A DNA stretch of 64,000 nt. It comes from Acidimicrobiaceae bacterium (GTDB lineage: Bacteria; Actinomycetota; Acidimicrobiia; Acidimicrobiales; RAAP-2). The stretch is from assembly GCA_003141095.1 (NCBI GenBank), contig PLKM01000010.1, positions 36,693 to 100,692 of the forward strand, given 5' to 3'. Below are positions 3,767 to 48,095 of the stretch, piece by piece. Numbering within the stretch: the stretch's first letter is position 1; every line of letters begins with the position of its first letter. The notes under the pieces are model-generated. The model searched no databases, was not told the DNA's origin, and worked only from the letters and a program-made list of their open reading frames with translations. The translations under genes were made by a program, and so were the position numbers.

Positions 3767-3787
3767 GTAGATCCATGAAGGGAAGCC

Positions 3788-7489: not shown

Positions 7490-7617
7490 GAGTGACAAGG
7501 CTACCCAGATGCGTTCTCACGTGCTAAACACGAAGCACGCTCAGTCTCAGAGCGAAAAATCAGGTGACGCTTCGAGCCTCCGCCCGTACGTGGGTCACGC
7601 CAAGAACCGCAGGGACT

Positions 7618-9383: not shown

Positions 9384-9462
9384 CCCGGCGAGGCTAGTTC
9401 GCGCCGCCGCCAATTGGAAGAAGGTCTGCGGATCCGACGTGTCCTTTCCGTAAACTTCGTCG

Positions 9463-10095
9463 ATGTCCCTACTGCACGTCGTGCCGGCATTTGCGATCAC
9501 CGCCCTCGTCCTCGCGATGGTTCCGGGCCAGGGCGTGGCGATGGTGCTTCGCCAGACCATTGTCGGGGGCGCGAGTTGCGCCTACAGGTCGGTAGCGGGG
9601 AACTCGCTGGGACTCATCATCTGGGGCGGCGCCTCGGCGATTGGCCTCAGCCAGGTGTTCGCACACTCCTTACTGGCCTTCAACATTCTCAAGTACGCGG
9701 GCGCCGCCTACCTGAGCTTTCTCGCGGTCCAGACCCTGTTCGAACTTCGCCACGACCACGAAAAGTTCGACCACCGCGGCCGGGCGCACGCGGGACCCTT
9801 GTCGGCCTTTCGCTTGGGTCTCTTCACCAATCTCACGAACGTCAAGGCTGCGGTCTTTGCCGTGGCCTTCATCCCCCAATTCGTCCCTAGAACATTCCCG
9901 CTCCTCACCGGAATCCTGATCTTGGCCGCCGTGCAGGCGGCGGTCTCGACTGGCTGGTACTTCGTTCTCGTCGCCACCATCGACCGGGCGGCGGTCATTT
10001 TGGCCAGGCCCCAGGTGCGACGGTGGCTGACTGGATTTTCTGCCGTGGGCCTTCTCGCCCTGGCGGTCATTCTGCTTTTCACCGCCCCTCGATAG
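9463..10095 (+). CDS. LysE/RhtB family translocator
   Basis: AMVPGQGVAMV, LKYAGAAYL, FRLGLFTNLTNVKAAVF. Confidence 0.9.
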   Translation: MSLLHVVPAFAITALVLAMVPGQGVAMVLRQTIVGGASCAYRSVAGNSLGLIIWGGASAIGLSQVFAHSLLAFNILKYAGAAYLSFLAVQTLFELRHDHEKFDHRGRAHAGPLSAFRLGLFTNLTNVKAAVFAVAFIPQFVPRTFPLLTGILILAAVQAAVSTGWYFVLVATIDRAAVILARPQVRRWLTGFSAVGLLALAVILLFTAPR

Positions 10096-10143
10096 TCGTC
10101 TAACGTTTCAAGAAGTTCCGAGTTGGAGCACAGAGGAGTCACC

Positions 10144-11322
10144 ATGTCACGCAGTGTCATCGTCGCCGGAAGTCGAACCGCTATTGGCAAGCTGTCGGGG
10201 GCCTTTGCCTCCTTGAGCGCGCAAGATCTTGGCGGTGCCGCAATCAGAGGCGTGCTGGAAAGTACCGGACTTGACCCCGCCACCGTTGACGCGGTGCTGA
10301 TGGGCCAGGTGATTCAAGCGGGTCAGGGCCAGATCACGGCACGCCAGGCCGCGGTGAAGGGCGGCGTTCCCATGACCGTGAACGCGACGACCATCAACAA
10401 GGTCTGTCTCTCGGGGCTCCAGACCATTTACCTGGCGGATCTCATGATTCGCGCCGGCGAAGCCGACGTCATCATTGCGGGTGGCATGGAATCGATGACC
10501 AATGCTCCCTACCTCTTGCCCGGTGCGCGCGCGGGCTACCGCATCGGCGATCAGAAGGTCGTCGACTCCATGATGTTCGACGGGCTGACCTGCGCGTTCG
10601 ATCAGTGCGCGATGGGGCTCGCCACCGAGCGCTACAACGCCGGACGCATCACCCGAGCGCGTCAGGATGAGTTCTCCGCCCGCAGCCACCAGCTCGCCGC
10701 CGCGGCAATCGCGTCGGGCAAGTTCGCCGAGGAGATCGTCCCCGTCGCGGTCGCCCAGCGCAAGGGTGACCCGATCATTGTTGGCACCGACGAAGGCGTT
10801 CGCGGCGAAACCACCGCCGAATCGCTCGGACTTCTCCGCGGCGCATTCGAGAAGGACGGTACGATCACCGCCGGAAACGCCTCGCAGATCTCCGACGGTG
10901 GTGCCGCAGTATTGATCATGTCCGAGGAGCGCGCGGCTCAGCTCGGCCTGACGCCAATCGGCGAACTCGTCGGCTACGGACAGGTCGCCGGCCCCGACGC
11001 CTCGCTGCTCAACCAGCCGGCGAACGCGATCACGAAGGCCCTCGCGAAGGCCGGCCTGGATCTGAAGGGCATTGACCTCTTCGAAATCAACGAGGCGTTC
11101 GCGGCGGTGGGGCTTTCCTCGGCCGACGAGCTCGGCATCGACGAGGACAAGATCAACGTCAACGGCGGCGCCATTGCCCTGGGTCACCCCGTGGGCATGT
11201 CGGGCACGCGCCTCGCCATCACCGCCCTCAACGAACTGCGCCGTCGCGGCGGCGGAACCGCAGCGATAGCGCTCTGTGGTGGCGGCGGGCAAGGCGACGC
11301 CGCAATCCTGCGCACGCTCTAG
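10144..11322 (+). CDS. Acetyl-CoA C-acetyltransferase (thiolase)
   Basis: INKVCLSG, FEINEAFA, GGAIALGHPVG, ALCGGGGQG. Confidence 0.95.
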   Translation: MSRSVIVAGSRTAIGKLSGAFASLSAQDLGGAAIRGVLESTGLDPATVDAVLMGQVIQAGQGQITARQAAVKGGVPMTVNATTINKVCLSGLQTIYLADLMIRAGEADVIIAGGMESMTNAPYLLPGARAGYRIGDQKVVDSMMFDGLTCAFDQCAMGLATERYNAGRITRARQDEFSARSHQLAAAAIASGKFAEEIVPVAVAQRKGDPIIVGTDEGVRGETTAESLGLLRGAFEKDGTITAGNASQISDGGAAVLIMSEERAAQLGLTPIGELVGYGQVAGPDASLLNQPANAITKALAKAGLDLKGIDLFEINEAFAAVGLSSADELGIDEDKINVNGGAIALGHPVGMSGTRLAITALNELRRRGGGTAAIALCGGGGQGDAAILRTL

Positions 11323-11834
11323 TCAGGCACGTAACTCGCCACGAGTTCGTAGCGGGCGAGTCCAATCTGCTGATGGTCCGGTAACGCCAGTACGAACGCG
11401 CCGCCGAGCGGGTAGCCCTTCTTGCGCAGCCCCTTCGGCAGATCCGACACGAGGCTGAGCAGCAGTTCGTACACGCTGGGGTTGTGCGCGACTACGAGTA
11501 GCGACGTCGTCACGGGGTCAATCGAGGCGAGGTTGATCAAGAGATCCTCCGCCGTCACCTCGCGACGACCGTTGTAGATCAACTCGCTGAACTCCCTCAC
11601 GCCGGCGAACGGCGTCTCGTCAAAGGCCCGGCGAAACGTCTCTCTCGTTCGTGCCGCGCTACTCACCAGCGCAACCGTCGGTCCGAAGCGACCGAGCTCG
11701 TTCGCGTCAAGGGCCCACCCCCGCAACTGCTTGCACTGCTTTCGGCCGCGTTTACTGAGCTCGCGCTCGAAGTCCGAGCCGCCGTGGGTGGCCGGGGAGG
11801 ATTCGCAGTGGCGAACAATGGTGAGATAACGCAC
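11319..11834 (-). CDS. sixA: SixA-type histidine phosphatase
   Basis: LTIVRHC, DFERELSKRG, VSSAARTRET, VAHNP. Confidence 0.85.
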   Translation of the reverse strand: MRYLTIVRHCESSPATHGGSDFERELSKRGRKQCKQLRGWALDANELGRFGPTVALVSSAARTRETFRRAFDETPFAGVREFSELIYNGRREVTAEDLLINLASIDPVTTSLLVVAHNPSVYELLLSLVSDLPKGLRKKGYPLGGAFVLALPDHQQIGLARYELVASYVPD

Positions 11835-11895
11835 CTTCCCAGTCTGGCCGATAGAAGCGCTCCGTCGATGACCTCGCGTGGTTTAGCGTTGGGGT

Positions 11896-12795
11896 ATGCA
11901 CGCCTCGTTGACATACTTCCAAGCAATCGTGATGGGTTTAGTGCAGGGAATCACGGAACTGTTCCCCGTTTCGAGCCTCGGTCACGGGGTGCTGCTGCCG
12001 GCGCTGCTCGGGTGGCACAACCTCGTCAACAGCCAGTCCACGTCGCAGTCCTTCTTTCTCGTGTTTCTCGTGGGCCTCCACGTGGGCACCGCCATCGGGC
12101 TTATCGTCTACTACCGCAAGACCTGGCTCGCTCTCCTGCGCGGACTGATCGTGCAGCTCTCCGGTGTGCGCGAGAACGGGGTGAGTTCCCTCTGGCAACT
12201 CCGTGATCCCGCCATGGACGAGAACTACCGCCTGCTGTTCGTGCTCGCCCTGGGCAGCGTACCCGTCGGTATCGCCGGTGTCCTGCTCGAGCATCAGCTG
12301 CGCGTCCTTTTCGACAAGCCACTCGCTGCAGCGATCTTCTTGACCATCAACGGCGTGATTCTGCTCGCCGGTGAACGCCTCCTTCGATCGCGCGGGCGCC
12401 ACGCCAAGTACCAGCAGCTCGATTCGATCAGCCCGCTGAGCGCCCTCGCCATTGGCTCATCGCAGATTCTCGCCCTGTTCGCCGGTATTTCGCGCAGTGG
12501 CGTGACCATGGTGTCGGGCCTCGTGGGCGGACTCGACCACGACGAATCGGCAAACTTCGCGTTCCTGCTCGCCACCCCCGTGATCCTCCTGGCTGGTCTC
12601 TACAAACTGCCCCAGTTGATGGGTTCGTTGGGTGACGGCGTGCGGCTGCAGACCCTCGTGGGGGCGCTCTGCGCGATGGTCGCCGCGTACGTGGCCGTGC
12701 GATTCCTCACCAAGTGGTTCACGACCAAGACGCTCGTTCCCTTCGGGATCTACTGCCTCGTGGCGGGTCTGCTCTGCGTTGTTCGCTTCGCCTAA
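11896..12795 (+). CDS. uppP: Undecaprenyl-diphosphate phosphatase
   Basis: QGITELFPVSSLGH, LHVGT, GISRSG. Confidence 0.93.
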   Translation: MHASLTYFQAIVMGLVQGITELFPVSSLGHGVLLPALLGWHNLVNSQSTSQSFFLVFLVGLHVGTAIGLIVYYRKTWLALLRGLIVQLSGVRENGVSSLWQLRDPAMDENYRLLFVLALGSVPVGIAGVLLEHQLRVLFDKPLAAAIFLTINGVILLAGERLLRSRGRHAKYQQLDSISPLSALAIGSSQILALFAGISRSGVTMVSGLVGGLDHDESANFAFLLATPVILLAGLYKLPQLMGSLGDGVRLQTLVGALCAMVAAYVAVRFLTKWFTTKTLVPFGIYCLVAGLLCVVRFA

Positions 12796-13394
12796 TCGGC
12801 GAGAACGCGACGTCCGTCAATTGCTCTGCCGAGCGTCAGGTCGTCGGCGAACTCCAGATCGCCGCCGACCGGCAGACCGCTCGCCGGTTGGGAAATGACG
12901 AGCCCCGGCGCCTGCAGCAGACGACTTAGATACATCGCGGTGGCGTCACCCTCGACGTTCGAATTGAAGCAAAGAATGACTTCCTTGATCGGTCCATTCA
13001 GTCGCCGTACCAATTCTTGAATACGCAGTCGGTCGGGGGTGACTCCTTCGAGAGGATTGAGCACACCGTGCAGGACGTGATACGTCCCGCGAAAAGCGCC
13101 CGAACGCTCCACGGCGACGACATCCGGCGGATTCTCCACGACGCAGATCGTTGTTTGGTCGCGCCGATCGTCGGCGCAGATGGGACACAGCCCGCCGGTC
13201 TCGGCGATATTGCAGCAACGCTCGCAGAAGGAAAGCTTGGTCTTCATCTCCTCGAGCGAATTGGCCAGGCGGGTTACGTCCTCATTCGGCTGACGCATCA
13301 GCCAAAAGGCAATTCGCTGCGCCGACTTCGGACCCACGCCGGGAAATCGACCAAGTTCGTCGACGACCGCCTGCAGCGGTGGCGGGTAACTCAC
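12792..13394 (-). CDS. recR: Recombination mediator RecR
   Basis: PGVGPKSAQRIA, C4 zinc finger, YHVLHG, GGDLEFAD. Confidence 0.97.
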   Translation of the reverse strand: MSYPPPLQAVVDELGRFPGVGPKSAQRIAFWLMRQPNEDVTRLANSLEEMKTKLSFCERCCNIAETGGLCPICADDRRDQTTICVVENPPDVVAVERSGAFRGTYHVLHGVLNPLEGVTPDRLRIQELVRRLNGPIKEVILCFNSNVEGDATAMYLSRLLQAPGLVISQPASGLPVGGDLEFADDLTLGRAIDGRRVLAD

Positions 13395-15082
13395 GAGATC
13401 TCCTCGGCGCCGGGGAACATCTCGGTAATGAGGTGATTCGCCGCCGACTGCACGACAATGGAGCTCTCGTCGGGCGAGTAGTCCTCGTCGACAACACCTT
13501 CCGGCGCCGGTCGGTGCGCGGGACGCTGCGTCGGAGCGGGCGTGGCAGTCAACAGCGCCGGGTCAACTGTCCATTCAACCACGAGCGTGGTCTTGAACTC
13601 ATGGTCCATCGCTCCGCGAAGTCCTTGGGAGATCATCTCGGTGTTCTGTCGCATCTCCTCGCTGGGCAGGGCAATCGTGAGCCGTTGACCGTCGAGGGCG
13701 CGGACTTGGGCGGCCTTCAACAGCAGCTGAGCGGCTCGCGATGTTCTTGGCACGACGCGCTGGAAAAAGCGTTCCCGCACGTCCTCCAGATTGAGTTGGT
13801 CCGGCTGAACGAGTGACGCGGGGGCCGGTTCTTGGGCTACGCGCTTCGAGACCTCCGGTTCGGGCTGGGACGGATCGACGGGAAATGTCTCGTTTGTTGA
13901 ACCAATCGGTCGCAGCACTGGCGCCGGCGGTGCGGGGACCGGCGCGCTGCGCACGACTCCCCTCTCGAGTTTGGTCACCCGTTCATTCAACGCATCGAGC
14001 GAAGCGTCGAGCTCGGGCTTGATGAGTCGGATCAGGGCCACCTCGAGGATGACGATCTTTTCGGGGGCACTCTTCATTTCGCGCATCGAGCGCCCAATGG
14101 TCTCAAGTACCCGCACCGTTCGCGCGAGTCCCAACTTCTCACCCCACGCACTCAGTCGTACGCGATCGGCGTCAACGGCGTCGGCGACCTCGGGTGCCAC
14201 CTGCAGCAAGAAGACCTGTCGCACTTCTCCCGCGAAGTTCTCCGCCAACTGCTCCGCATCCCAACCATCTTGACGAAGCATCGCGAGCGACTTCAATGCT
14301 TCAACCGGATCTTCGTTGACCAGTGCACGAAAGAGCCCGTCGAACTCCGGCTGGGTCTCGGTGATCGAACCCGTCGCGAGCAGTTGGTCCAGGGCGCTCA
14401 ACGCGTCACGGGCCGAGCCGCGTCCGAGCCGGACCGCCGCGTCAATGGTCGCTTCGTCCGCGCCCAGGCCCGCGGCACCCTGCACGTCGTGCAAGAGCGA
14501 ACTCAGGGTGTCGCCCCCGATGAGACGGAATTCCAGGTGCTGCGTACGCGAACGGATCGTGGGCAGCACCTTGTGGGGATCGGTGGTGGCGAGGACGAAC
14601 ACGACGTGCTGGGGTGGCTCTTCGAGCGTCTTGAGCAAGGCCGCCGAGGCGGCCTTCGAGAGCTGGTGGACCTCGTCGAAGATGTACACCTTCCAGCGAC
14701 CGGGCGTGACGTGCCAGGCTCCCGCGGTGATTTCTCGAATGTCGTCGACGCCGTTATTCGATGCGGCGTCGAGCTCGATGACGTCAAGTGAGGATCCCCT
14801 GGTGATCGCCACGCAGCTCGCGCACTCGTTGCACGCGTCGCCATCAACGGGGTGCTCGCAGTTAAGGGCCTTGGCCAGAATTCGAGCCGTCGTGGTTTTG
14901 CCCGTCCCTCGGGGACCCGAAAACAGATAGGCGTGCGAGACCCGATCGTTCCTCACCGCTCCTTGCAGGGCGCGCACGACGTGATCCTGCCCCCGCAGCT
15001 CGCAGAATCGACCGGGGCGGAAACGACGGTAGAGGGAGGTCACTCCGTCGAGCGAAGTGGGGGTTGGAGTCGCATCAGCCAT
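13391..15082 (-). CDS. dnaX: DNA polymerase III gamma/tau
   Basis: LYRRFRP, FSGPRGTGKTT, CNECASC, DAASNNGVDDIR, FDEVHQL. Confidence 0.97.
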   Translation of the reverse strand: MADATPTPTSLDGVTSLYRRFRPGRFCELRGQDHVVRALQGAVRNDRVSHAYLFSGPRGTGKTTTARILAKALNCEHPVDGDACNECASCVAITRGSSLDVIELDAASNNGVDDIREITAGAWHVTPGRWKVYIFDEVHQLSKAASAALLKTLEEPPQHVVFVLATTDPHKVLPTIRSRTQHLEFRLIGGDTLSSLLHDVQGAAGLGADEATIDAAVRLGRGSARDALSALDQLLATGSITETQPEFDGLFRALVNEDPVEALKSLAMLRQDGWDAEQLAENFAGEVRQVFLLQVAPEVADAVDADRVRLSAWGEKLGLARTVRVLETIGRSMREMKSAPEKIVILEVALIRLIKPELDASLDALNERVTKLERGVVRSAPVPAPPAPVLRPIGSTNETFPVDPSQPEPEVSKRVAQEPAPASLVQPDQLNLEDVRERFFQRVVPRTSRAAQLLLKAAQVRALDGQRLTIALPSEEMRQNTEMISQGLRGAMDHEFKTTLVVEWTVDPALLTATPAPTQRPAHRPAPEGVVDEDYSPDESSIVVQSAANHLITEMFPGAEEIS

Positions 15083-15110
15083 GCACGCATGCTAACGGTG
15101 CCCTGTGAGG

Positions 15111-15244
15111 TGCCGAGGTCCAAAGCGATGGTCAGGCGATCCGTGGCACCCGACACAATCCGCTGAGAGCTGCTGGCTTCCACCCCTGACTCGGTTCACG
15201 AACGGTCGTCGCACGGGACCCGACCACCGCTTTGGACCTCGGCA
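15111..15244 (-). ncRNA. ffs: SRP RNA (4.5S-type) with a long closing helix
   Basis: The minus strand carries GAACCGAGTCAGGGGTGGAAGCCAGCAGC, matching the helix-8 TCAGG..GGAA..AGCAGC pattern. It sits in the usual position upstream of dnaX and has complementary ends. Boundaries are approximate. Confidence 0.85.
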
Positions 15245-15249
15245 TCAAA

Positions 15250-15290
15250 AAGGTTACCGGACGGACACCTGGTCCGTCTCGGGTAGCCTT
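15250..15290. promoter_or_regulatory. Imperfect inverted repeat between the divergent ffs and tRNA-Ser genes
   Basis: AAGGTTACC..GGACGGAC / GTCCGTC..GGGTAGCCTT. Each outer arm contains a -10-like hexamer (TAACCT on minus, TAGCCT on plus). Confidence 0.4.
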
Positions 15291-15331
15291 GCAAGCCGGT
15301 ATTCATTTCGCTGAGCGGGCGGCGAAATCCG

Positions 15332-15419
15332 GGAGGAGTGCGAGAGCGGCCGAATCGGCACGATTGGAAATCGTGTGAAGGGAAACCTTCCGTGGGTTCA
15401 AATCCCACCTCCTCCGCCA
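15332..15419 (+). tRNA. tRNA-Ser(GGA)
   Basis: GGAGGAG/CTCCTCC acceptor stem, CACGA-TTGGAAA-TCGTG anticodon arm, long variable arm, GGTTCAAATCC, encoded CCA. Confidence 0.96.
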
Positions 15420-15444
15420 TGGTGAAATTGTCGTGAAGCCAGAA

Positions 15445-15482
15445 GTTAAAGCCTCGTGCCGTAACTGACACGAGGCTTTAAC
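15445..15482 (+). terminator. Hairpin terminator after tRNA-Ser(GGA)
   Basis: Perfect 14-bp stem GTTAAAGCCTCGTG/CACGAGGCTTTAAC with a 10-nt loop. Confidence 0.75.
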
Positions 15483-15608
15483 CTCTCACTTCTACCGTGA
15501 GGCCATGACATCGATTCCCAGACCTGAGCGGTTGACTCACTACCCGGGCCCTGACAACGGTGACCGAGTTCGCTCGTCCTTGATTGGCGGCTTCGAGCGG
15601 CGTCCGGC

Positions 15609-17255
15609 ATGAGTGCACCCGCGACCGTCGAAGAGTTGTTCGCTCTCTACGAAGCGAAAGGGCACCGACGCTACGGCGAACGTGTGTCGGCGCTCGAGCA
15701 CGCCCTGCAGTGCGCGGCCCTCGCTCGCGCGGACGGCGCCACTGACGTGCTGATTGCCGCCGCACTCTTTCACGACGTGGGCTGGCTGGTGGATGGCGGG
15801 TCCGGCGATGAGGATTCCACACCCGCGCTTGATCATGGCCATGCGGCACTCGGCGCTCGCATCCTCTCGCCAATTCTTGGCCCTTCGGTCGCCCAACCTG
15901 TCGCACTGCACGTCACCGCGAAACGCTGGCGATGCACCATTGAGCCGACCTATTACCGCCAGCTTTCGCCCGCGTCCCAGGAGACGTTCAAGGCTCAGGG
16001 CGGGTACTTGAACTCCGACGAGCGCACTCGCTTTGAGTCGCACCCCGGCTTCGAGACCGCCTTGGCGCTGCGTTCGTGGGACGACGCCGGCAAGGCACCA
16101 GGGCTCGATGTCGGCACTTTGCGTGATTACGAGGTCCTCGCGAAAGCGCTGGCAACTGAGACGCCGGGGCCAACCGCGCAACTGCCGTTCCCGCCACTCT
16201 GGCTACGCGACAACTGTCCCTGCCAGAGTTGTCACGATCCGCTGAGCAACCAGAAGCTCTTCCAGGTCACCGATCTGCCCGACGGGCTTTCGGTGGCGGA
16301 CGTCCAAGTGACCGGCGACGAGGTCAGCATGACGTTTCTGCCCGATGGTCACCGCTCGGTGTTCTCGCGCGATTGGCTCTCATCACAGGGGCCGAGCGCG
16401 CGTGACGATGGTCGTACCGAGAAGGACAAGCAACTTTGGCGGGCTCGAGACCTCGAGGAAACCCCCCAGCGTGCCGACTGGTCCTCGTACCGCGACGACG
16501 AACATGAACGCCTTCGCGTTCTTCGCGGGATCGAGCGTGTCGGATTCGCGGTCCTTCGCGCCACGCCGACGGCTGATCGGACAGTGTTGGATATCGCACG
16601 GACCTTCGGGTACGTACGCGAGACAAACTACGGCGAGCTGTTCGATGTACGCGTTGAACCCACTCCGAACAATCTCGCCTTTACCGGAGTCGCAATCTCT
16701 CCCCATACGGACAACCCGTACTGGGATCCGGTGCCGACGATGCAGCTTCTCCACTGCCTGTCGAACGACGTCGACGGTGGTGAGTCGGGTCTCGTTGATG
16801 GCTTTCTGGCGTCCGTGATCCTTCGCGACGAGCACCCGAAATACTTTGACGTTCTCGCCGGCACGCCGGTGACCTTCGCCTGGGCCGACGAGCATAATTC
16901 CCTACGAGCGCGGCGCCCCCTGATCGAACTGGACCCGCTCGGTCGCGTGCGCGGCGTGCGCTTCAACAATCGATCAATGCAAGCATTACAGCTCGACTTC
17001 GACGACACGGTCGAGTACTACGACGCCTACCGATGCTTCGCTCAGATCGTCGCACGACGTGACCTTCTGCTGACCTTTCGCCTCGAGCCGGGCGACTGTC
17101 TGATCTTTGACAACACTCGGCTCCTCCACGCCCGTACGGCGTTCATCGAGTCGAGCACGGGCAAGCGCCATCTGCAGGGCTGCTACACCGATCTGGACGG
17201 GCTGGCGAGCACCATCGCCGTGCTCGAGCGAGCCGGCGGAGTTCGCCATGGCTGA
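15609..17255 (+). CDS. Fusion of a PhnZ/TmpB-like HD diiron oxygenase and a GBBH/TmpA-like Fe(II)/2OG dioxygenase
   Basis: N-terminal ~185 aa: EHALQ, FHD, HVTAKR, QGG, LRSWDD. Then WLRDNCPCQSC (GBBH Zn domain), HTDNPY, DNTRLLHAR and RHLQGCY. Confidence 0.88.
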   Translation: MSAPATVEELFALYEAKGHRRYGERVSALEHALQCAALARADGATDVLIAAALFHDVGWLVDGGSGDEDSTPALDHGHAALGARILSPILGPSVAQPVALHVTAKRWRCTIEPTYYRQLSPASQETFKAQGGYLNSDERTRFESHPGFETALALRSWDDAGKAPGLDVGTLRDYEVLAKALATETPGPTAQLPFPPLWLRDNCPCQSCHDPLSNQKLFQVTDLPDGLSVADVQVTGDEVSMTFLPDGHRSVFSRDWLSSQGPSARDDGRTEKDKQLWRARDLEETPQRADWSSYRDDEHERLRVLRGIERVGFAVLRATPTADRTVLDIARTFGYVRETNYGELFDVRVEPTPNNLAFTGVAISPHTDNPYWDPVPTMQLLHCLSNDVDGGESGLVDGFLASVILRDEHPKYFDVLAGTPVTFAWADEHNSLRARRPLIELDPLGRVRGVRFNNRSMQALQLDFDDTVEYYDAYRCFAQIVARRDLLLTFRLEPGDCLIFDNTRLLHARTAFIESSTGKRHLQGCYTDLDGLASTIAVLERAGGVRHG

Positions 17256-17452
17256 AATGCTTCGAGGGCTCGTCGAAGGTTGGACGAGCCAGGTCACCCG
17301 CTCGGATCATCGGAGGCTTCAATGTCGACGCCCCTGATGCAACCGCCGGGTTTCGTAAGTACCCGTTGCATTAAATTTCCGTGACTTCACCGGCAGAGAC
17401 CTCGTTCCAGTTCCGACACCAGGTTTTCACCTTCCACCCGTACCATGAGGGC

Positions 17453-18211
17453 ATGGTTCCAATCCTCAGCAGCGAGCTGCGCGAGCACTATCGGCATCAC
17501 GGATGGCTGCTGGTCGATGACGCGCTCGAGATCTCGGTGGACGAGTTGCGCGCCGAGGTCGACGAAATCGCGTCATGGGACGAGTCGGGCGAGTGGCTGC
17601 ACCACTTCGAAATGACCGACCGTGGTCGCCAACTCGCTCGAACCGAGAACTTCACGCCGTTCTCCCCCCGCCTGCGCGAACTCCTGGGCGCCGGCACGAT
17701 CAGTCGGATTGCGAGCGAACTGCTCGGCGAAGAGGCGCTGCTCTACAAGGAGAAAATTAACTATAAGTTGGCGGGGGGCGCCGGCTTCTCCCCTCATCAG
17801 GACAAGCCGGCGTACCCGTTCGTGGACGTCGTGCTGAGCGTCATGGTGGCAGTCGACGACGCCACCGTCGAGAACGGGTGCCTCTACGTCGCTTCCGGAT
17901 GGCACCATGATCTCCTCGACCAGGACGAGCGAGGCTGCCTGAGCCCAGCGGTCGTCGAGCACCTGGACTGGCGGCCGGCCCCGTTGCGGGCCGGGCAGAC
18001 CCTGTTCTTTCACGCGCTCACGCCTCACCGCAGCGGACCCAACTCGTCAACTCGTGATCGTCGGGCGCTCTACCCCACGTACAACGGAGTTTCCGAAGGT
18101 GATCTGCGTGATGCGTACTACGCTGCGAAAATCGAGGCGTTCCAACACCCCGACGAGGGCGATCGAGTCCGTTTGTCCCTTATTGGCGATTTTGAAGGGC
18201 GGCCCGCATGA
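17453..18211 (+). CDS. phnY: PhnY-like phytanoyl-CoA dioxygenase family protein (phosphonate C1 hydroxylase)
   Basis: LYKEKINYKLAGGAGFSPHQD and TPHRSGPN..RRALY; overlaps the phnZ start by 4 bp. Start 17453 or 17381. Confidence 0.8.
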   Translation: MVPILSSELREHYRHHGWLLVDDALEISVDELRAEVDEIASWDESGEWLHHFEMTDRGRQLARTENFTPFSPRLRELLGAGTISRIASELLGEEALLYKEKINYKLAGGAGFSPHQDKPAYPFVDVVLSVMVAVDDATVENGCLYVASGWHHDLLDQDERGCLSPAVVEHLDWRPAPLRAGQTLFFHALTPHRSGPNSSTRDRRALYPTYNGVSEGDLRDAYYAAKIEAFQHPDEGDRVRLSLIGDFEGRPA

Positions 18212-18768
18212 ACACTCCGAACACCGTTGAGGATCTCTTCGCCCTCTACGAGTCAAAGGGTGACGAGCACTACGGCGAGTTCATCACCCAGACCGAGCAC
18301 GCCCTACAATGCGCGGCTCTCGCGCGGCGCGACGGCGCCACCGACGCGCTCGTAGTTGCGGCCCTCTTTCACGACGTTGGCCACTTGGTGGCCGACACGC
18401 AAAGCAACGACCGTATCGATCTCGCCGACGAGGACGACGACCATGAGCAGGTCGGCGCTCGAATTCTTTCGCCGATCCTTGGTCCCGCGGTCGCCCAGCC
18501 GGTGGCACTGCACGTCACCGCCAAGCGCTGGCGCTGCACGATCGACCCCACGTACCACGCTCAGTTGTCGCCCACCTCCCAAGCAACGCTGAAGGCCCAG
18601 GGCGGACTGCTGAGCCCCGAGGAGTGCGCCCGCTTCGAGGCTCACCCGGGCTTCGAAAGCGCCTTGGCGCTGCGGTCGTGGGACGACGCGGGAAAGGCCC
18701 CCGGACTCGAGGTCGGCGTACTGCGCGACTACGAGGGCCTGGTCAGGGTGCTGGCCGACGCTCGGTGA
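18208..18768 (+). CDS. phnZ: PhnZ-like HD-domain diiron oxygenase (C-P cleavage)
   Basis: YGE, TQTEHALQ, FHDVGH, DHE, LHVTAKR, QGG, LRSWDD; translationally coupled to phnY. Confidence 0.85.
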   Translation: MNTPNTVEDLFALYESKGDEHYGEFITQTEHALQCAALARRDGATDALVVAALFHDVGHLVADTQSNDRIDLADEDDDHEQVGARILSPILGPAVAQPVALHVTAKRWRCTIDPTYHAQLSPTSQATLKAQGGLLSPEECARFEAHPGFESALALRSWDDAGKAPGLEVGVLRDYEGLVRVLADAR

Positions 18769-19852
18769 CGAGCACGTCGCGCGCGCTAACGAGCACGTCG
18801 ACCCGCTCTCCGATGTCAAAGACTTCGGCGGCGCTACTGCGCACGTCCACCTTCACGGTGACACCACCGACGCCAACCTGCAGTCTCGTCGTCGAGCCGA
18901 AGAAGGACCGGTGGGTGATGACGCCGAGCCCGTTTGGTGCGGCGAGGATCTCGAGGTCCTCGGGACGAAGCAACGCATCGAGAGGTCCGCTCGGCAGCGC
19001 CGAGGTACCTCCTCGGACCTCGACGGTCTGGGCGAACAACTTCACCCGATCCCCGGCCAACTCGACACTCACACGGCTTGAAGCACCCACGAACTCGGCG
19101 ACGAATGCCGTGCTCGGCCGGTCGTAGAGCATCGACGGGCTCGCCACCTGCTCAACGCGTCCCTTAGACATGACGCACACCCGGTCGGCCATCGAGAGCG
19201 CCTCTTCCTGGTCGTGGGTGACGAAGACCGTCGTGATGGCGAGGCGCTGCTGCAGGGCGCGGATCTGATCGCGCAACTCGGCGCGCACCTTCGCGTCGAG
19301 GGCGGACAACGGTTCATCGAGCAGCAGCACACGCGGTTCGATGGCGAGCGCTCGAGCGAGTGCCACACGTTGCTGCTGTCCGCCCGAAAGCTGGTGGGGA
19401 TACTTGCTCAAGTGGTCGCTGAGCCCGACCAGGTCGAGAAGTTCCCCAGCGCGTTGGCGGCGTTGTGAGGAGCGTTGTCCTCTCAGGCGAAGTCCGAACG
19501 CGACGTTATCGCGGGTGGTCATATTGGGGAAAAGGGAGTAGCTCTGAAACACCATTCCCATGTCTCGCTTTTGCGAGGGAGTGTCGCTGAGGTCCTTTCC
19601 ATCGACCAATACACGACCGCTATCCAGGTGCTCGAAGCCCGCCAGCACTCGAAGGGCGGTGGTCTTGCCGCAGCCCGACGGGCCGAGCAGGGCGACGAAC
19701 TCACCCGGCTGGATGTCCAGCGAGAACCCGTCGAGGGCGCGCGTCGTCCCGAACTGGCGCACCAGATGCTCCATGACCACCGGAGCTCCCGACGCGGGCG
19801 GATCAGACGGGTGTGTGGGGACCTCGGCGCGTTGCGTGGCGACTGACATCAT
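18743..19852 (-). CDS. ABC importer ATPase (PotA/PhnT-like, with TOBE domain)
   Basis: GPSGCGKT, LSGGQQQR, LLLDEP. ATG 19852 overlaps the permease stop (ATGA). Confidence 0.92.
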   Translation of the reverse strand: MMSVATQRAEVPTHPSDPPASGAPVVMEHLVRQFGTTRALDGFSLDIQPGEFVALLGPSGCGKTTALRVLAGFEHLDSGRVLVDGKDLSDTPSQKRDMGMVFQSYSLFPNMTTRDNVAFGLRLRGQRSSQRRQRAGELLDLVGLSDHLSKYPHQLSGGQQQRVALARALAIEPRVLLLDEPLSALDAKVRAELRDQIRALQQRLAITTVFVTHDQEEALSMADRVCVMSKGRVEQVASPSMLYDRPSTAFVAEFVGASSRVSVELAGDRVKLFAQTVEVRGGTSALPSGPLDALLRPEDLEILAAPNGLGVITHRSFFGSTTRLQVGVGGVTVKVDVRSSAAEVFDIGERVDVLVSARDVLVTERRPAP

Positions 19853-20700
19853 GACTGCTTCCTCTTCAGGGTTCTTCGGGACTGTGAGCGGTCGAGCGAG
19901 ACTATCAACGTGAGTAGCACCCACGTCGCGATGAGCGACAGCATCGCGACGGCCACCGTCACGTGGCCGTCGTTCTGGGAGGTTGCGACAATCCAGACCG
20001 GTATCGTCTGCCATCCATCGAGGCTCGCCATCGTGTATTCACCGAGCACCAGCGCCAGGGACAGCACCGTTGCGGAGAGCAGCGCGCTGCGCAGATTGGG
20101 AATCACCACGCTCCACAGCGTGCGGAACCAACTCGCTCCGAGCGAGCGGGACGCCTCGACGAGCGTGTGGAGGTCGATGGCGCCGAGACCGGCCGCCAGC
20201 GAGCGGTACACGAAGGGCATCACCAGGATCACGTACACCAGCGAAAGCAGGTAGGGCGACGACTTAAGCCACAACGGTGACGACGGCAGCACGCCCAGGA
20301 TGAGGACGATGGGGGGAATCACGATCGGTAGCAACGTGATCGTCTCAAAGAGCGGCTTCAGCTTCGGCACCTTCAGATGCATGTACACGACCGTGGGCAC
20401 CATGAGTCCCATTGCGACCACCATCGTCACCCCGGCGAGTCGCATCGAAAGCCAGAAGGCCGAACCCAGTCCGGGTTGGCTGGGAATGGACGTGAGCGGC
20501 GAGAAGGAGAAGTGGTTCTGGTCATTTTCCAGCGCGAAGTGCAGCGCCGCGTAGATCGGAGTCAAGAAATAGACGCCCGCTATCAGCAGGACGATCGCGC
20601 GGCCGACGTGGATGCGATGACGCAGACCGTGCCGGGACTCGGGAACAAAGACTTCGGGTACGTCACCCTCGATGATCACCCCGGGCGTCACCGTAACCAT
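19849..20700 (-). CDS. ABC importer permease
   Basis: Multiple TM helices and the EAA loop LVEASRSLGAS. Confidence 0.9.
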   Translation of the reverse strand: MVTVTPGVIIEGDVPEVFVPESRHGLRHRIHVGRAIVLLIAGVYFLTPIYAALHFALENDQNHFSFSPLTSIPSQPGLGSAFWLSMRLAGVTMVVAMGLMVPTVVYMHLKVPKLKPLFETITLLPIVIPPIVLILGVLPSSPLWLKSSPYLLSLVYVILVMPFVYRSLAAGLGAIDLHTLVEASRSLGASWFRTLWSVVIPNLRSALLSATVLSLALVLGEYTMASLDGWQTIPVWIVATSQNDGHVTVAVAMLSLIATWVLLTLIVSLDRSQSRRTLKRKQS

Positions 20701-43110: not shown

Positions 43111-43124
43111 TGCTTCTCTTGGTG
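43111..43124. repeat. Left target-site duplication (14 bp)
   Basis: TGCTTCTCTTGGTG, 13/14 identical to 45980-45993. Confidence 0.85.
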
Positions 43125-43156
43125 GGGATAGGTGACAAGGACAGCCGAAACGTCCG
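43125..43156 (+). repeat. Left terminal inverted repeat
   Basis: GGGATAGGTGACAAGGACAGCCGAAACGTCCG; 27/32 match to the reverse complement of 45948-45979. Confidence 0.85.
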
Positions 43157-43463
43157 GTAGTCACCCCTGTTTTCGAATACCCGCGCTTGTTCAAGTGATG
43201 GCGTTCCTGCATCTCAACACGTGGTGCGCAAGATCCCAGCCTCAACCCCCGAGCAAATCGGCGCCTTCCTTAGTTGTTCACAATCAATACCGTTACGTGC
43301 AACCCGCCATATGCTCCAATACCCGAGTCTGATGCAACCGGCGACACAGGAAATCACCCCGAAATTGTTACCCGCCCTTAATTGCCTTCACGCGGAGTCC
43401 TTAGAGGGCGCGGCAAGTATGGGTCATGCGTGGAGATGTTCTCCGCGCGAAGGAGGGACCACC

Positions 43464-43745
43464 ATGTACCGGACCACCGCCAATCGACTTCGCCGCATCG
43501 CCGTTGCGTCTGCCCTTACGATCGGCGCCAGCGGAGGAGCGCTCGCCGGGACCCTGACCGTCCTCGGCACGGGAACCAACGGCCCCGTGAGCGCCGCAGC
43601 CATTTCTCACACAACATCGAGCTCGTCCAAGGCGTCGCACACTGTGGTTGCGGCGGCGGTGCCGGTAGCGGTGAGCCAAGCGACAGCAACGTCGGCCACT
43701 ACCAGTCCGTCAGGGACCGCGTCGACGAAAACGCTTGACTCGTAG
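43464..43745 (+). CDS. Small secreted Ser/Thr/Ala-rich protein (element cargo)
   Basis: AGGAGGG RBS; RRIAVASALTIGASGGALA signal-like segment; low-complexity remainder. Confidence 0.6.
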   Translation: MYRTTANRLRRIAVASALTIGASGGALAGTLTVLGTGTNGPVSAAAISHTTSSSSKASHTVVAAAVPVAVSQATATSATTSPSGTASTKTLDS

Positions 43746-44063
43746 CACTCGACCTGAACCGTACGTAAGTCCAGGGTCATCAATTGCGTGGTGACCGAGG
43801 TGGACGACAATCTTCGGATTCTACGCGGCTCGTGCATTGGTCGGAAGGGCGAGCGTCGTTTGGGGCCAGCACGATTCGGCGTCTTCGTCTTGGACTGCTT
43901 TGAGTCTGAAATGCAATCGTTCGTCGAGGCCCGAGTCGCTACTTTAATCTGGTTGTGCTCTTCCGCTCATCGACGTCCTTGTAGATTGTCAGGGTGTGGT
44001 CGAGGTCGTTGACCGACGACTCGACCGTGTATGCCATCGTGGCAAAGTTGATTACGTTCGCCT

Positions 44064-44933
44064 TTACGGCACACGAATCGAGAGTGCGCCGGACGCGGTG
44101 ACCGATCGACCCTCGGCATCCACTCCCATAGCCGACACGGTGACACTCGCACTTCCTGCGCTCGCCCCTGTCAAGGTGTAGTCCAGCACCGTTGAAGCAC
44201 CCTTTGCGAGCTTGAATCCCGATGCGCTCGACGCAGGACCAGCAGTCAACGACGCCGACGAGATCGTCACAGCCGATGGAACAATCGAGTAGATCGGACC
44301 TGCAACCGCGGTCAACTTGACTGAGATCGTCGCTGTCGCACCGACGGCCAAGCTCCCCGAGGTGGCGCTTGAGGTGACCGACATCTGCAGTCGTCCGCCC
44401 TTCTTCAAGCGTATGCCCGAGTTGAAAATGAGGTAGATGGTCGGCGAATCGTTGTTCTGGCGGACATAGACGGGCACCCACATCTTCGTCCCCCGAGGGA
44501 CGATGACCCAGCATTTCGACACGTTCGTCTTGCAGCCCGAGACGACCTTCACCCCGCCGCCCACGAACCAGTCCAGGTGGTTGTACACGCAGCCAGCATC
44601 GCCACAGGCGACCGGCTTGGTCGACTGGAGCGGCGCGGGGCCCTTTAGTTTGAACTTGTCCTTCTTGTTCGCGACCGTGAGCGGAACGACGGTGCCGCCA
44701 CCCGGGATGATGTAGCCCTCGCAGTCGCCGTAGCCCGACCCGGTGTAGTAGCAGGTCGGAATCGGCGGGGGCTTCGTGGTGCCCTTAGCTTCGGCCACTC
44801 CGGAGCTCACAAGTCCCGAGACGACCACGACCGCCGCCATGACCAGCGCCGCCAACCCGCGGCGATTCCCTGACGCGCCGAGGCTGCGCTGAGCGGATAT
44901 CGACTGCTTCCCGTTCACAACTGAATACGTCAT
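44064..44933 (-). CDS. Secreted Cys-containing protein with a C-terminal Ig-like/DUF11-like domain (element cargo)
   Basis: Signal peptide ending AEA; six Cys in the N-terminal domain; beta-rich C-terminal part (ATATISVKLT, TVLDYTLT). Confidence 0.6.
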   Translation of the reverse strand: MTYSVVNGKQSISAQRSLGASGNRRGLAALVMAAVVVVSGLVSSGVAEAKGTTKPPPIPTCYYTGSGYGDCEGYIIPGGGTVVPLTVANKKDKFKLKGPAPLQSTKPVACGDAGCVYNHLDWFVGGGVKVVSGCKTNVSKCWVIVPRGTKMWVPVYVRQNNDSPTIYLIFNSGIRLKKGGRLQMSVTSSATSGSLAVGATATISVKLTAVAGPIYSIVPSAVTISSASLTAGPASSASGFKLAKGASTVLDYTLTGASAGSASVTVSAMGVDAEGRSVTASGALSIRVP

Positions 44934-45290
44934 CTGCTTGTTCCCTTCATCGTCACGGCGAGAACTCAGCGGCATCGGGAAACTGATTCGAATCAGACCC
45001 CAATGTCAAAAACAACATGCCCGTGACGGACTCATCGCCGCTAGAGTCGAAAGCCCTTTCAGCAGCATTCGACGCCCAGCAGAGTCGCTGCGAGCCGCCG
45101 TTCGAGGGAACCTTCAGCACCAAGTCACCGGGTGCTGTGCCTCCGATTCATACCAGACCGCTTGTTTACCATCTCCGGATTGCCGTTGGCAGCGGGCCCT
45201 TTCGTGCGAACGCCGATCTCAACCGGAGCGGTCCGGACGACGGATACTTTCGCAGCCGTTGCCTCGGACCTCTCATGTACACGCTTAACT

Positions 45291-45938
45291 TCAACACCAT
45301 CCAGGGTGACGCTTCGAACTTTCCTTGAGCCAATCGATCGCTCGCCGTTCACTGACTCCTGCAGCTTTGGCCACCGCTTTCGTACTTAGTTCTCGAAGAT
45401 TGGGTAGTACGAATCTCTTTAACTCGTCGTCATCGCTGTAGATCGTCAGGCGCTGGTCGAGTTTGTTCACCGATACCTCACCGGACGAGCGCTCCTCCAG
45501 TCGGTTCGCCTCCTTGCCGATGAGCACAATCTTTCCCGCTGTAATTGGTCGACGATGTAACAGTCGGATCGTCTGACGGTCACAGACCATTCCATCGGGG
45601 CCCAATACCTTGGACTCCGGATGGGATTCGTACCTGTTCACGACGTCGAGGAAGGTTTCCACGCGAGCGGCACCTGGGCGACTGACGCTCGTTGATAGTT
45701 CGTAGTGACCAGCACCAGGATTGTGCACGTCGATCTACTTCAAGGTTTCCCACGTGTGAGCATTCGTCTCGTAGGGGGCGACGAAGCGAAACGGCGAACC
45801 GATCTTGATTCCGTCGGGTGGCTTCGCACCGACTGCCGATGGCGCGAAATTGAAGGGCTTCACCCGTTTGTCAGACGGCACGTCACCATTGAGATGACGA
45901 AAAGCGCGTCGGACCGGCCCCTGCCGGCGCAATTGCAA
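45291..45938 (-). pseudogene. C-terminal remnant of a casposon-type family B DNA polymerase, 5'-truncated, with an in-frame TAG at 45735-45737
   Basis: Two same-frame ORFs read VKPFNF, FVAPYE, LK*ID (expected W), YESHPESKVLGPDG..CDRQT..LLHRR and LIGKEANRLEE, then an HTH. This matches my recollection of bacterial casposon PolB tails; not verified by search. Confidence 0.7.
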
Positions 45939-45947
45939 ATGCTTTCG

Positions 45948-45979
45948 CGGACGTTTCAGACGTCCCTATCACCTATCCC
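45948..45979 (-). repeat. Right terminal inverted repeat
   Basis: The minus strand reads GGGATAGGTGATAGGGACGTCTGAAACGTCCG. Confidence 0.85.
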
Positions 45980-45993
45980 TGTTTCTCTTGGTG
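45980..45993. repeat. Right target-site duplication (14 bp), overlapping the tRNA 3' CACCA
   Basis: TGTTTCTCTTGGTG; 45989-45993 are the last five tRNA nucleotides. Confidence 0.85.
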
Positions 45994-46065
45994 CGGCTGG
46001 AGGGATTCGAACCCCCGACCCTCGGTTCCGTAGACCGATGCTCTAATCCGCTGAGCTACAGCCGC
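45989..46065 (-). tRNA. tRNA-Arg(ACG)
   Basis: GCGGCTG acceptor stem, TCGGT-CTACGGA-ACCGA anticodon arm, GGTTCGAATCC, encoded CCA. Confidence 0.97.
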
Positions 46066-48076: not shown

Positions 48077-48095
48077 TGACAAATGGTAGTAAGCG

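What the first reader, a model, noticed from the sequence alone, without database searches (positions are those of the whole stretch)
43111..45993. Non-autonomous mini-casposon at the 3' end of tRNA-Arg(ACG): 32-bp TIRs, 14-bp TSD, PolB remnant, no cas1
Seen: inverted repeats at 43125-43156 and 45948-45979 (27/32 identical, both starting GGGATAGGTGA). Seen: a 14-bp direct repeat abutting both (TGCTTCTCTTGGTG / TGTTTCTCTTGGTG), made of the last 5 nt of the tRNA plus 9 nt of flank. Seen: a decayed PolB C-terminus starting about 10 bp inside the right TIR. Known: characterised archaeal casposases (Aciduliprofundum boonei, Methanosarcina mazei) integrate TIR-bounded PolB elements into tRNA genes with ~14-15-bp duplications. 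Inference: an internally deleted bacterial casposon reduced to 2,855 bp that kept both ends and carries unrelated cargo, i.e. a MITE-like derivative mobilisable in trans by a Cas1 casposase. It would also define a tRNA-Arg target for actinobacterial casposons. None of this is visible in the ORF track.
Basis: partly seen in the sequence, partly recalled or inferred. Interest (0 to 1): 0.9.

Follow-up and report, generated by a model that had tools for sequence, protein, structure and literature searches.

The report
Gutted casposon beside a tRNA-Arg gene
This 2.9-kb insert at the end of a tRNA-Arg gene is the stripped-down remains of a casposon, a transposon moved by a Cas1 enzyme related to the CRISPR machinery: it keeps both ends, its insertion footprint, a stub of its DNA polymerase gene and one intact cargo gene, but can no longer move by itself.

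Summary
The element has 32-nt inverted ends (27/32), a 14-bp target duplication (13/14) and tRNA-Arg(ACG) next to it. It also holds a 215-codon open frame with one TAG.

That frame matches only the C-terminal about 200 residues of a family of about 1,000-aa family B polymerases. In 70 of 80 loci these polymerases lie next to a Cas1 gene. Full-length Cas1+PolB elements from related Acidimicrobiales carry the same end motif (GGGATAGGTGA..AAACGTCC) and make 14-bp duplications.

Four related metagenome contigs show the exact empty site: acyltransferase, one 14-mer, tRNA-Arg, M20 peptidase.

So this is a casposon derivative without Cas1 or a working polymerase. The 93%-complete genome has no Cas1 and no second copy.

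Its cargo is a 303-aa secreted protein. This gene recurs in at least four other contexts in relatives, and three of these carry casposon ends or a polymerase stub. Its synonymous divergence (0.19-0.27) is far below that of the host genes (0.8-2.0). Each copy has different deletion junctions. Independent decay of once-complete elements is therefore somewhat more likely than copying of one mini element in trans, which remains possible.

The scan has noted similar gutted casposons on other DNA before.

The parts
43111..43124 (.). Left copy of the 14-bp target-site duplication (TGCTTCTCTTGGTG)
   Evidence: Relatives L098-L101 have a single 14-mer (TGTTTGCCTTGGTG) at this junction.
43125..43156 (+). 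Left terminal inverted repeat (GGGATAGGTGACAAGGACAGCCGAAACGTCCG)
   Evidence: The same motif bounds full-length Cas1+PolB elements. L102 carries the same GACAAGG variant.
43465..43745 (+). Small ORF (93 aa from the ATG; 174 aa from the GTG at 43221) with a hydrophobic N-terminus and an Ala/Ser/Thr-rich tail. Unknown cargo, or not a gene.
   Evidence: No Pfam or NCBIfam hit. No tblastn hit in any fetched locus.
43939..44040 (-). Second, shorter fragment of the polymerase C-terminal tail ('tail B': ..ESSVNDLDHTLTIYKDVDE..)
   Evidence: The copy in L098 is longer: 61 aa align with the tail of the main remnant.
44064..44975 (-). Intact cargo gene for a 303-aa predicted secreted protein (here 'sec303'). 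It has a Cys-rich N-terminal part and a repeat-like C-terminal part, and belongs to no known family.
   Evidence: There are 26 homologues in 5.8 billion proteins. dN/dS is 0.30-0.42 against its relatives.
45291..45938 (-). Remnant of the casposon family B polymerase gene (equivalent to residues about 774-972 of a 995-aa relative), with one in-frame TAG at 45735-45737
   Evidence: It is 60% identical to P0002 over residues 774-972.
45948..45979 (-). Right terminal inverted repeat (GGGATAGGTGATAGGGACGTCTGAAACGTCCG)
   Evidence: Identical over 33 nt to element ends in L115 and L128, and 34/35 identical to L098/L137.
45980..45993 (.). Right copy of the 14-bp target-site duplication (TGTTTCTCTTGGTG). 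Its last 5 nt are the CACCA end of the tRNA.
45989..46065 (-). tRNA-Arg(ACG), the integration target. It is left intact, and the element starts 9 nt past its CCA end.
   Evidence: The same 9-nt spacing occurs in L103 and L137.

Best explanation
The stretch 43125-45979 is a casposon derivative. A Cas1-type integrase (casposase) joined the two GGGATAGGTGA ends of a casposon to staggered cuts 14 bp apart, 9 nt past the CCA end of tRNA-Arg(ACG). Gap repair duplicated the 14-mer and left the tRNA intact.

The element belongs to a large bacterial lineage whose complete members carry, in order: end, HNH, Cas1, HTH genes, PolB, cargo, end. Here one block is missing, from just inside the right end to about polymerase codon 770. 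By analogy with the 18.1-kb relative L009 this block is roughly 10 kb and holds HNH, Cas1 and three quarters of the polymerase. What remains is both ends, the polymerase C-terminal stub, a cargo gene for a 303-aa secreted protein that still evolves under constraint, a second small polymerase-tail fragment and a small ORF.

The element is non-autonomous. In this genome it is stranded, because there is no Cas1.

Shown: the ends, the duplication, the empty site, the polymerase origin of the stub, and the link of that polymerase family and of these ends to Cas1. Inferred: the chemistry of integration (from the characterised archaeal casposases) and the timing of the deletion.

My odds: casposon origin about 0.95. 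The deletion happened after insertion (decay in place of a once-complete, sec303-carrying casposon) about 0.6. It moved as an already deleted element using a casposase supplied in trans about 0.3-0.35.
For: Ends and footprint:
- TIRs 27/32 and TSD 13/14 at the tRNA 3' end.
- The motif occurs twice in the window against 0 in shuffles.

Empty site:
- L098-L101, from four samples, read acyltransferase, one 14-mer, tRNA-Arg(ACG), M20.
- The two flank alignments overlap by 17 nt.

Polymerase stub:
- A phmmer search of 1.8 billion proteins gave 1,347 hits. The full-length ones are about 1,000 aa and match at their C-terminus.
- They carry DTET, FNLPFD, YxxxD, SMYPT, KxxxNAxxYG and DTDS motifs.
- An AlphaFold model of the L009 protein (pLDDT 86.9) matches Pol alpha, phi29, 9N, KOD and Pol II at E about 1e-13 to 1e-11.

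Link to Cas1:
- 70 of 80 loci with this polymerase have a Cas1 homologue 2-5 kb upstream.
- PF01867 E-values are 3.7e-41, 6e-39 and 6.5e-40 for L009, L010 and L015.
- L009 Cas1 matches the M. mazei casposase chain 6opm_A at 2.8e-20.

Same ends on complete elements:
- L009 spans 1747..19884 and carries HNH, Cas1, PolB and a methylase/Res cargo. Its duplication reads as 15 bp (GCTCTTGCAGCAGTC; 14 bp plus one possibly chance base).
- L010, L011, L013, L019, L020 and L052 carry the same ends. L013, L019, L020 and L052 have clear 14-bp duplications.

Decay in place:
- Related copies of the sec303 module have different junctions: window stub from residue about 774; G007 type 783-966 plus an inverted 665-695 piece; L098 and L225 types no stub.
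- The stub against the G007-type stub has dS 0.69 and dN/dS 0.25, so the two polymerases diverged as working genes.
- The genome has one copy, no other ends and no Cas1.
Against: - No complete casposon carrying sec303 was seen. None of the 80 polymerase loci has it, and every TIR-linked sec303 copy found lacks Cas1 and a full polymerase. Decay in place would therefore have had to happen repeatedly and quickly.
- sec303 copies are much closer to each other (dS 0.19-0.27) than the host genes are (M20 0.8-1.4, ROK 1.1-2.0). The module spread recently, possibly already inside small elements.
- The genome is a 93%-complete draft in 84 contigs, so a Cas1 could have been missed.
- The dS values rest on 174-395 codons and a simple Nei-Gojobori count.
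Confidence: 0.6

Rival explanations
1. A true non-autonomous 'mini-casposon'. The element was already deleted when it inserted here. It was mobilised by a casposase supplied in trans by a full-length casposon of the same end family that has since been lost or was never assembled. In this reading the sec303 gene spreads among related Acidimicrobiales on such small elements.
For: - Both ends keep the family-conserved blocks (positions 1-11 and AAACGTCC). The left-end variants also occur in other members.
- sec303 dS of 0.19-0.27 against host dS of 0.8-2.0 shows recent horizontal spread.
- All TIR-linked copies found are small and lack Cas1. L225-L227 hold a unit of about 1.29 kb (TIR-like sequence, sec303, TIR) at the same tRNA-Arg in the opposite orientation. 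L098, L101 and L137 have an end 34/35 identical to the window's right end, at another site with a TTTGGTG flank.
- Artificial mini-casposons consisting of TIRs plus cargo integrate in vitro (PMC5137440) and move in vivo using the chromosomal Cas1 (PMC10359463).
Against: - No two copies share the same internal junctions.
- The genome has a single copy, no Cas1 and no further ends.
- The stub of the window and that of the G007 type diverged under purifying selection, which fits separate working parents.
- The L225 ends are decayed and no duplication can be recognised there.
Confidence: 0.32
2. A tRNA-targeted genomic island inserted by a tyrosine or serine recombinase. In this reading the 14-mer is the att core and the inverted repeats are recombinase binding sites.
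For: It lies at the 3' end of a tRNA gene and has a short direct repeat that includes the tRNA end. The region between the three tRNA-Arg genes is a variable hotspot in relatives.
Against: - There is no integrase gene in or beside the element.
- The inverted repeats abut the direct repeat exactly. They are the ends of Cas1+PolB elements at many sites that are not tRNA genes, always with 14-bp duplications of unrelated sequence.
Confidence: 0.02
3. A MITE or deleted insertion sequence of a DDE-transposase family whose ends only happen to resemble casposon ends.
For: TIRs and a TSD are generic transposon marks. A weak HTH_Tnp_ISL3 hit (E 0.043, below threshold) falls in the stub's C-terminal helices.
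Against: - The stub is the C-terminus of a polymerase, not of a transposase.
- A 14-bp duplication is unusually long for IS families.
- The motif co-occurs with Cas1 and PolB.
- Published casposon ends are similar: MetMaz-C1 GGGATATAGGTAAC..AAAAACGC with a 14-bp TSD, and NitAL212-C1 GGGGTATGTTAAC..AAACGCC with a 14-bp DR.
Confidence: 0.02

Closest known systems
Family 3 (bacterial) casposons, e.g. NitAL212-C1 of Nitrosomonas sp. AL212 (Krupovic et al. 2014, PMC4046053; 2016, PMC4779613)
   Same: - Bacterial host.
- Full-length relatives carry Cas1 with a C-terminal HTH, PolB and HNH.
- 14-bp duplication.
- End architecture GGGNTANGTNA ... AAACGYC. The NitAL212-C1 TIR is GGGGTATGTTAACTTCTCCCAAACGCC with a 14-bp DR.
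   Different: - The 2016 survey states that all bacterial casposons are in intergenic regions. This element, and several with the same ends, sit 9 nt past a tRNA gene.
- This copy has no Cas1 and only a polymerase stub.
- Clade membership by Cas1 or PolB phylogeny was not tested here.
Family 2 archaeal casposons at tRNA genes: AciBoo-C1 (tRNA-Pro) and Methanosarcina mazei MetMaz-C1 (tRNA-Leu-like sites)
   Same: - Insertion just past the 3' end of a tRNA gene. The duplication overlaps the last few tRNA bases and leaves the tRNA intact (PMC4046053).
- 14-15-bp TSD.
- The MetMaz-C1 end GGGATATAGGTAAC..AAAAACGC resembles GGGATAGGTGATAG..GAAACGTCC.
   Different: - Archaeal hosts.
- Polymerases recognised by standard profiles, whereas Pfam misses this family in 5 of 6 members tested.
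- Those elements are autonomous.
Engineered mini-casposons (TIR-marker-TIR) used with the A. boonei and M. mazei casposases (PMC5137440, PMC10359463)
   Same: Only the ends and cargo are present, with no Cas1 and no polymerase. In those experiments the ends, with the casposase supplied in trans, were enough for integration.
   Different: Those are laboratory constructs with proven movement. This is a natural element with no demonstrated movement as a mini element and no casposase in its genome.
Deteriorating second casposon beside MetPsy-C1 in Methanolobus psychrophilus (Krupovic 2014)
   Same: A casposon in the process of decay.
   Different: That remnant has lost recognisable TIRs. This one keeps both ends and the duplication but has lost the genes.

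Membership tests
Casposon (Cas1-solo + PolB self-synthesizing transposon) | Cas1-family integrase gene inside the element | tested here: not met
   No Cas1 among the ORFs of 43125-45979. PF01867 has no match in the whole 93%-complete assembly. Full-length relatives with the same ends do have it.
Casposon (Cas1-solo + PolB self-synthesizing transposon) | Family B DNA polymerase gene | tested here: not met
   Only the C-terminal 215 codons remain, with one TAG. The parent family is a family B polymerase by motifs and by fold.
Casposon (Cas1-solo + PolB self-synthesizing transposon) | Terminal inverted repeats shared with Cas1-encoding elements | tested here: met
Casposon (Cas1-solo + PolB self-synthesizing transposon) | Target-site duplication of 14-15 bp, with an empty site holding one copy | tested here: met
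   The 14-mer is present twice and once in L098-L101.
Casposon (Cas1-solo + PolB self-synthesizing transposon) | No tyrosine/serine recombinase or DDE transposase | tested here: met
Family 3 (bacterial) casposons | Cas1 falls in the family 3 clade | not tested
   No reference family 3 Cas1 sequences were available for a tree. The only support is resemblance of the ends and TSD to NitAL212-C1 and the presence of HNH in L009.
Family 3 (bacterial) casposons | Intergenic target, as reported for all known members (PMC4779613) | tested here: not met
   The target overlaps the last 5 nt of tRNA-Arg(ACG). Other members of this end family also abut tRNA genes.
Non-autonomous transposon mobilised in trans (MITE-like) | Several copies with the same internal structure at different sites | tested here: not met
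   One copy in the genome. Related copies in other genomes have different junctions.
Non-autonomous transposon mobilised in trans (MITE-like) | Cognate transposase elsewhere in the same genome | tested here: not met
   No Cas1 in the assembly, which is 93% complete.
Non-autonomous transposon mobilised in trans (MITE-like) | Both ends intact at the positions the transposase needs | tested here: inconclusive
   The family-conserved blocks are intact in both ends. Which bases the casposase needs is unknown for this lineage.
tRNA-targeted integrase island | Integrase gene and an att core without abutting inverted ends | tested here: not met

The most novel reading that the evidence does not exclude
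A natural, cargo-carrying mini-casposon. In this reading small TIR-bounded units carry the secreted-protein gene sec303 but no Cas1 or polymerase. They are moved in trans by casposases of resident full-length casposons and have spread horizontally among peat-bog Acidimicrobiales. They land 9 nt past tRNA-Arg genes in either orientation. This would be the first natural counterpart of the laboratory mini-casposons, and a bacterial casposon lineage with tRNA targeting.
Probability: 0.3. Interest if true: 0.7.

Novelty: new variant of a known kind. Interest (0 to 1): 0.55.

Why it matters
Casposons are the presumed ancestors of the CRISPR adaptation module. In the papers I could search, bacterial casposons are a handful of elements said to sit only in intergenic DNA, and natural non-autonomous derivatives are not described.

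This locus is a clean case: both ends, an exact duplication and an exact empty site, in a bacterial casposon lineage that targets the 3' end of tRNA genes as archaeal family 2 does. It has been reduced to ends plus cargo.

Together with its relatives it gives defined substrates (a 32-nt end and a tRNA-Arg target with 9-nt spacing) for testing a bacterial casposase. It also shows how casposon cargo outlives the mobility genes. If mobilisation in trans were shown, it would be the natural analogue of the engineered mini-casposons.

Tried and rejected
- Pfam and NCBIfam on the stub found nothing significant.
- Sequence searches of the full-length polymerase family against the PDB found nothing, either as a single sequence or as a profile. 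The polymerase assignment therefore rests on motifs, one weak DNA_pol_B_2 hit and the fold search.
- Relatives L088-L096 did not give an empty site, because the DNA past the tRNA differs in each. The empty site came from L098-L101.
- ARAGORN found tRNA genes next to only 5 of 84 metagenomic ends. An Rfam scan of 12 of those loci, 11 of them without such a call, found no RNA gene at the ends. tRNA targeting is therefore not general for the motif.
- I first took the L098 TIR for the left end of a complete second mini element. No matching right end exists there.
- I considered that L228 is an independent context. It shares its upstream flank with L225.
I therefore could not locate the G007 copy in its genome, could not look for read-level polymorphism of the occupied and empty site, and could not scan the whole assembly with my own scripts.
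Full report
**1. What is in the sequence**

The two arms at 43125-43156 and 45948-45979 are inverted repeats, 27 of 32 identical. Both begin GGGATAGGTGA and end AAACGTCCG. Immediately outside them lie TGCTTCTCTTGGTG (43111-43124) and TGTTTCTCTTGGTG (45980-45993).

ARAGORN places tRNA-Arg(ACG) at 45989-46065 on the minus strand. The right 14-mer is therefore the CACCA end of the tRNA plus 9 nt of flank, and the element begins 9 nt past the CCA.

The degenerate end motif GGGATAGGTGANAN(10)AAACGTCC occurs only at these two places in the 64-kb window. It occurred in none of 100 shuffles. The element is 2,855 bp long with 59% G+C, against 62% for the window.

**2. The polymerase stub**

The minus-strand frame 45291-45938 is open apart from one TAG at 45735-45737. 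Pfam and NCBIfam do not recognise it.

A search of 1.84 billion representative proteins gave 1,347 hits. The full-length ones are about 1,000 aa and match at their C-terminus. The best full-length hit, P0002 (995 aa), is 60% identical over residues 774-972.

These proteins carry the exonuclease and polymerase motifs of family B enzymes: DTETT, FNLPFD, YIDYxxxD, SMYPT, KxxxNAxxYG, DTDS and KRY. Pfam sees this in only one of six (DNA_pol_B_2, 1.4e-6). Sequence searches of the PDB see nothing.

An AlphaFold model of the L009 member (30-sequence alignment, pLDDT 86.9, pTM 0.85) matches only family B polymerases at the top of a Foldseek search. The matches include Pol alpha, phi29, 9N, KOD and E. 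coli Pol II, at E about 1e-13 to 1e-11. The stub is the family-specific C-terminal region of that enzyme.

**3. The polymerase family and the ends belong to casposons**

A scan of species-representative genomes found at least 542 loci encoding this polymerase. They come from Acidimicrobiia, Actinomycetes, Acidobacteriota, Eremiobacterota, Chloroflexota and Gemmatimonadota.

In 70 of the 80 loci kept, a Cas1 homologue lies 2-5 kb upstream on the other strand. Eight of the ten without one are short or cut contigs. Three were checked with Pfam: PF01867 at 6.5e-40, 3.7e-41 and 6e-39. The L009 protein matches the Methanosarcina mazei casposase chain 6opm_A at 2.8e-20.

L009, an Acidimicrobiaceae MAG, holds a complete 18.1-kb element at 1747..19884. 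It carries HNH, Cas1, HTH genes, a 1,012-aa PolB and a methylase/Res cargo. It is bounded by GGGATAGGTGATAGGGGCCGC..AAACGTCC ends and a direct repeat GCTCTTGCAGCAGTC.

The same ends occur in L010, in L011 (beside tRNA-Arg CCG), and in L013, L019, L020 and L052. The last four have clear 14-bp duplications of unrelated sequence. In the 80 that were returned as loci I found 84 such ends.

Published casposon ends look alike. MetMaz-C1 has GGGATATAGGTAAC..AAAAACGC with a 14-bp TSD. NitAL212-C1 has GGGGTATGTTAAC..AAACGCC with a 14-bp DR.

**4. The empty site**

Close homologues of the neighbouring M20 peptidase led to contigs from related populations.

In L098-L101 (M20 88% identical, four samples) the 365-aa acyltransferase gene is followed by a single 14-mer and then the tRNA...CCAAACGACTGCCTGGGCG TGTTTGCCTTGGTG CGGCTGGAGG... 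Window 40540-43127 and window 45980-50000 align to these contigs continuously, and the two alignments overlap by 17 nt. That is the unoccupied target.

Another assembly with an identical M20 gene (L097) has the occupied right junction, with one base changed in the repeat.

**5. What was lost and what was kept**

Complete relatives read end, HNH, ..., Cas1, ..., PolB, cargo, end. Here the right end is followed after 33 nt by polymerase codon about 766. One block of roughly 10 kb by analogy with L009 is missing.

Downstream of the stub come:
- a 315-nt spacer;
- an intact gene for a 303-aa predicted secreted protein (sec303), which belongs to no known family and has only 26 homologues in 5.8 billion proteins;
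- a second short fragment of the polymerase tail;
- a small ORF and the left end.

The assembly (2.5 Mb, 84 contigs, 93% complete) has no Cas1, no other copy of the stub and no other end.

**6. History of the cargo module**

sec303 with its tail fragment recurs in relatives in other settings.

1. L098, L101 and L137. The module lies about 3.9 kb upstream of the empty site, next to a single end that is 34/35 identical to the window's right end. The flank there is CCCTCAGTTTGGTG. There is no main stub.
2. L225-L227. The module lies beside the same tRNA-Arg/M20 but in the opposite orientation. It sits between a decayed end next to the tRNA and a decayed end-like sequence, a unit of about 1.29 kb.
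3. The same-genus genome G007 and L221-L224. The module lies at a locus not present in the window. It has polymerase residues 783-966 plus an inverted piece 665-695 and no ends.
4. L229. A 77% identical, longer paralogue without ends.

| Comparison | dS | dN/dS |
|---|---|---|
| sec303, among the first three settings and the window | 0.17-0.27 | 0.30-0.51 |
| sec303, window against the L229 paralogue | 0.47 | 0.38 |
| M20 peptidase (host gene) | 0.8-1.4 | not computed |
| ROK (host gene) | 1.1-2.0 | not computed |
| Polymerase stub, window against G007 type | 0.69 | 0.25 |

The module has therefore spread between lineages well after they split. The two stubs look like descendants of separately working polymerases.

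**7. Reading**

The casposon origin is secure. The open question is when the genes were lost.

Different junctions in every copy, a G007 copy that retains a polymerase piece absent here, and the selection signature of the stubs all favour independent decay of once-complete, sec303-carrying casposons.

Against that, no complete sec303-carrying casposon turned up. Every end-linked copy is small. Mini-casposons made only of ends and cargo do move in trans, in vitro and in vivo (PMC5137440, PMC10359463). The opposite orientation in L225 fits either a second insertion or inversion between the ends, which was seen with artificial elements.

I put decay in place at about 0.6 and movement as a mini element at about 0.3.

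**8. Compared with what is known**

Krupovic et al. described bacterial (family 3) casposons from a few genomes. In 2016 they stated that all of them lie in intergenic regions and that tRNA targets are confined to archaeal family 2.

This lineage is bacterial and resembles NitAL212-C1 in its ends and TSD. Yet here, and in L011, L103, L118, L137, L138, L150 and L166, it abuts tRNA genes, five of them tRNA-Arg. I found no paper describing natural non-autonomous casposons.

Notes from this scan, which are unchecked AI notes, report the same kind of bacterial lineage landing 9 nt past tmRNA or tRNA genes. They also report several gutted casposons in other genomes. Within this scan the kind is therefore not new. 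I confirmed the 9-nt spacing in three cases.

**9. Limits**

No read-level test of mobility was possible, the G007 copy could not be placed in its genome, and I could not make my own whole-genome scan.

Family 3 membership was not tested by phylogeny. The substitution rates are simple Nei-Gojobori counts on short genes.

Noticed in passing
window 40227-40303, 41127-41203, 45989-46065: Three co-oriented tRNA-Arg genes partition a variable region. The UCG copy differs from the 45989 ACG copy only at the anticodon base. In relatives the DNA between and beyond these tRNAs differs from lineage to lineage, so this is an insertion hotspot.
   Followed up: partly
L008-L087 (genome-contig loci): A very large bacterial casposon clade. 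At least 542 species-representative genomes encode this roughly 1,000-aa polymerase, which Pfam mostly misses. Cas1 lies beside it in 70 of 80 loci. The clade spans Acidobacteriota, Actinomycetota, Eremiobacterota, Chloroflexota and Gemmatimonadota.
   Followed up: partly
L108, L109, L111, L112, L119, L122, L131, L136, L140, L144, L156, L157, L164, L173, L175 (outer flank of the TIR): About fifteen metagenomic casposon ends share a conserved outer flank of about 45 nt (..TCTCCACCGGACCAGCCGCGCTTCCGACCCCCACCTCCACAGG) in front of different genes. ARAGORN calls no tRNA or tmRNA at any of these ends. Rfam, run on six of these loci, found no RNA gene there. This is an unidentified conserved target.
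   Followed up: partly
L134:251-332; L104:6183-8083; L011:5419-5446: Tandem and solo ends. L134 has two same-direction ends 81 bp apart with a tRNA 3' fragment between them. L104 has an inward-facing diverged end, a 14-nt spacer and the next element's end. L011 has the 14-mer TGCCGAGGGCACAC twice in tandem before the end. These are arrays of the kind reported for M. mazei.
   Followed up: no
window 40540-43127 versus L098:5232-7860: The accessory block left of the target (DUF gene, tRNA-Arg, acyltransferase) is much closer between the two lineages (acyltransferase dS 0.27) than the core genes to the right (M20 dS 0.82, ROK 1.09). The block itself has been exchanged.
   Followed up: no
L098:1948-2540: Between the solo end and the polymerase tail there is a decayed frame resembling, from my memory, the N-terminus of restriction-type (Mrr/Res-like) enzymes (..KGKQFEHIRKWFPMNDPACLLQLRKVWLWD..). 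It would be a relic of defence cargo. It was not searched.
   Followed up: no
L221:3977-5296: In one G007-type contig a group II intron reverse transcriptase (RVT_1, GIIM) follows sec303 directly, where another contig of the same type has TetR genes.
   Followed up: no
window 48096-52868 and relatives L088-L101: The conserved right flank (ROK kinase, then VirD4-like, VirB4-like, two unknown genes and DUF6112) is syntenic in all relatives fetched. This T4SS-like operon is therefore core to the group, not part of the island.
   Followed up: no
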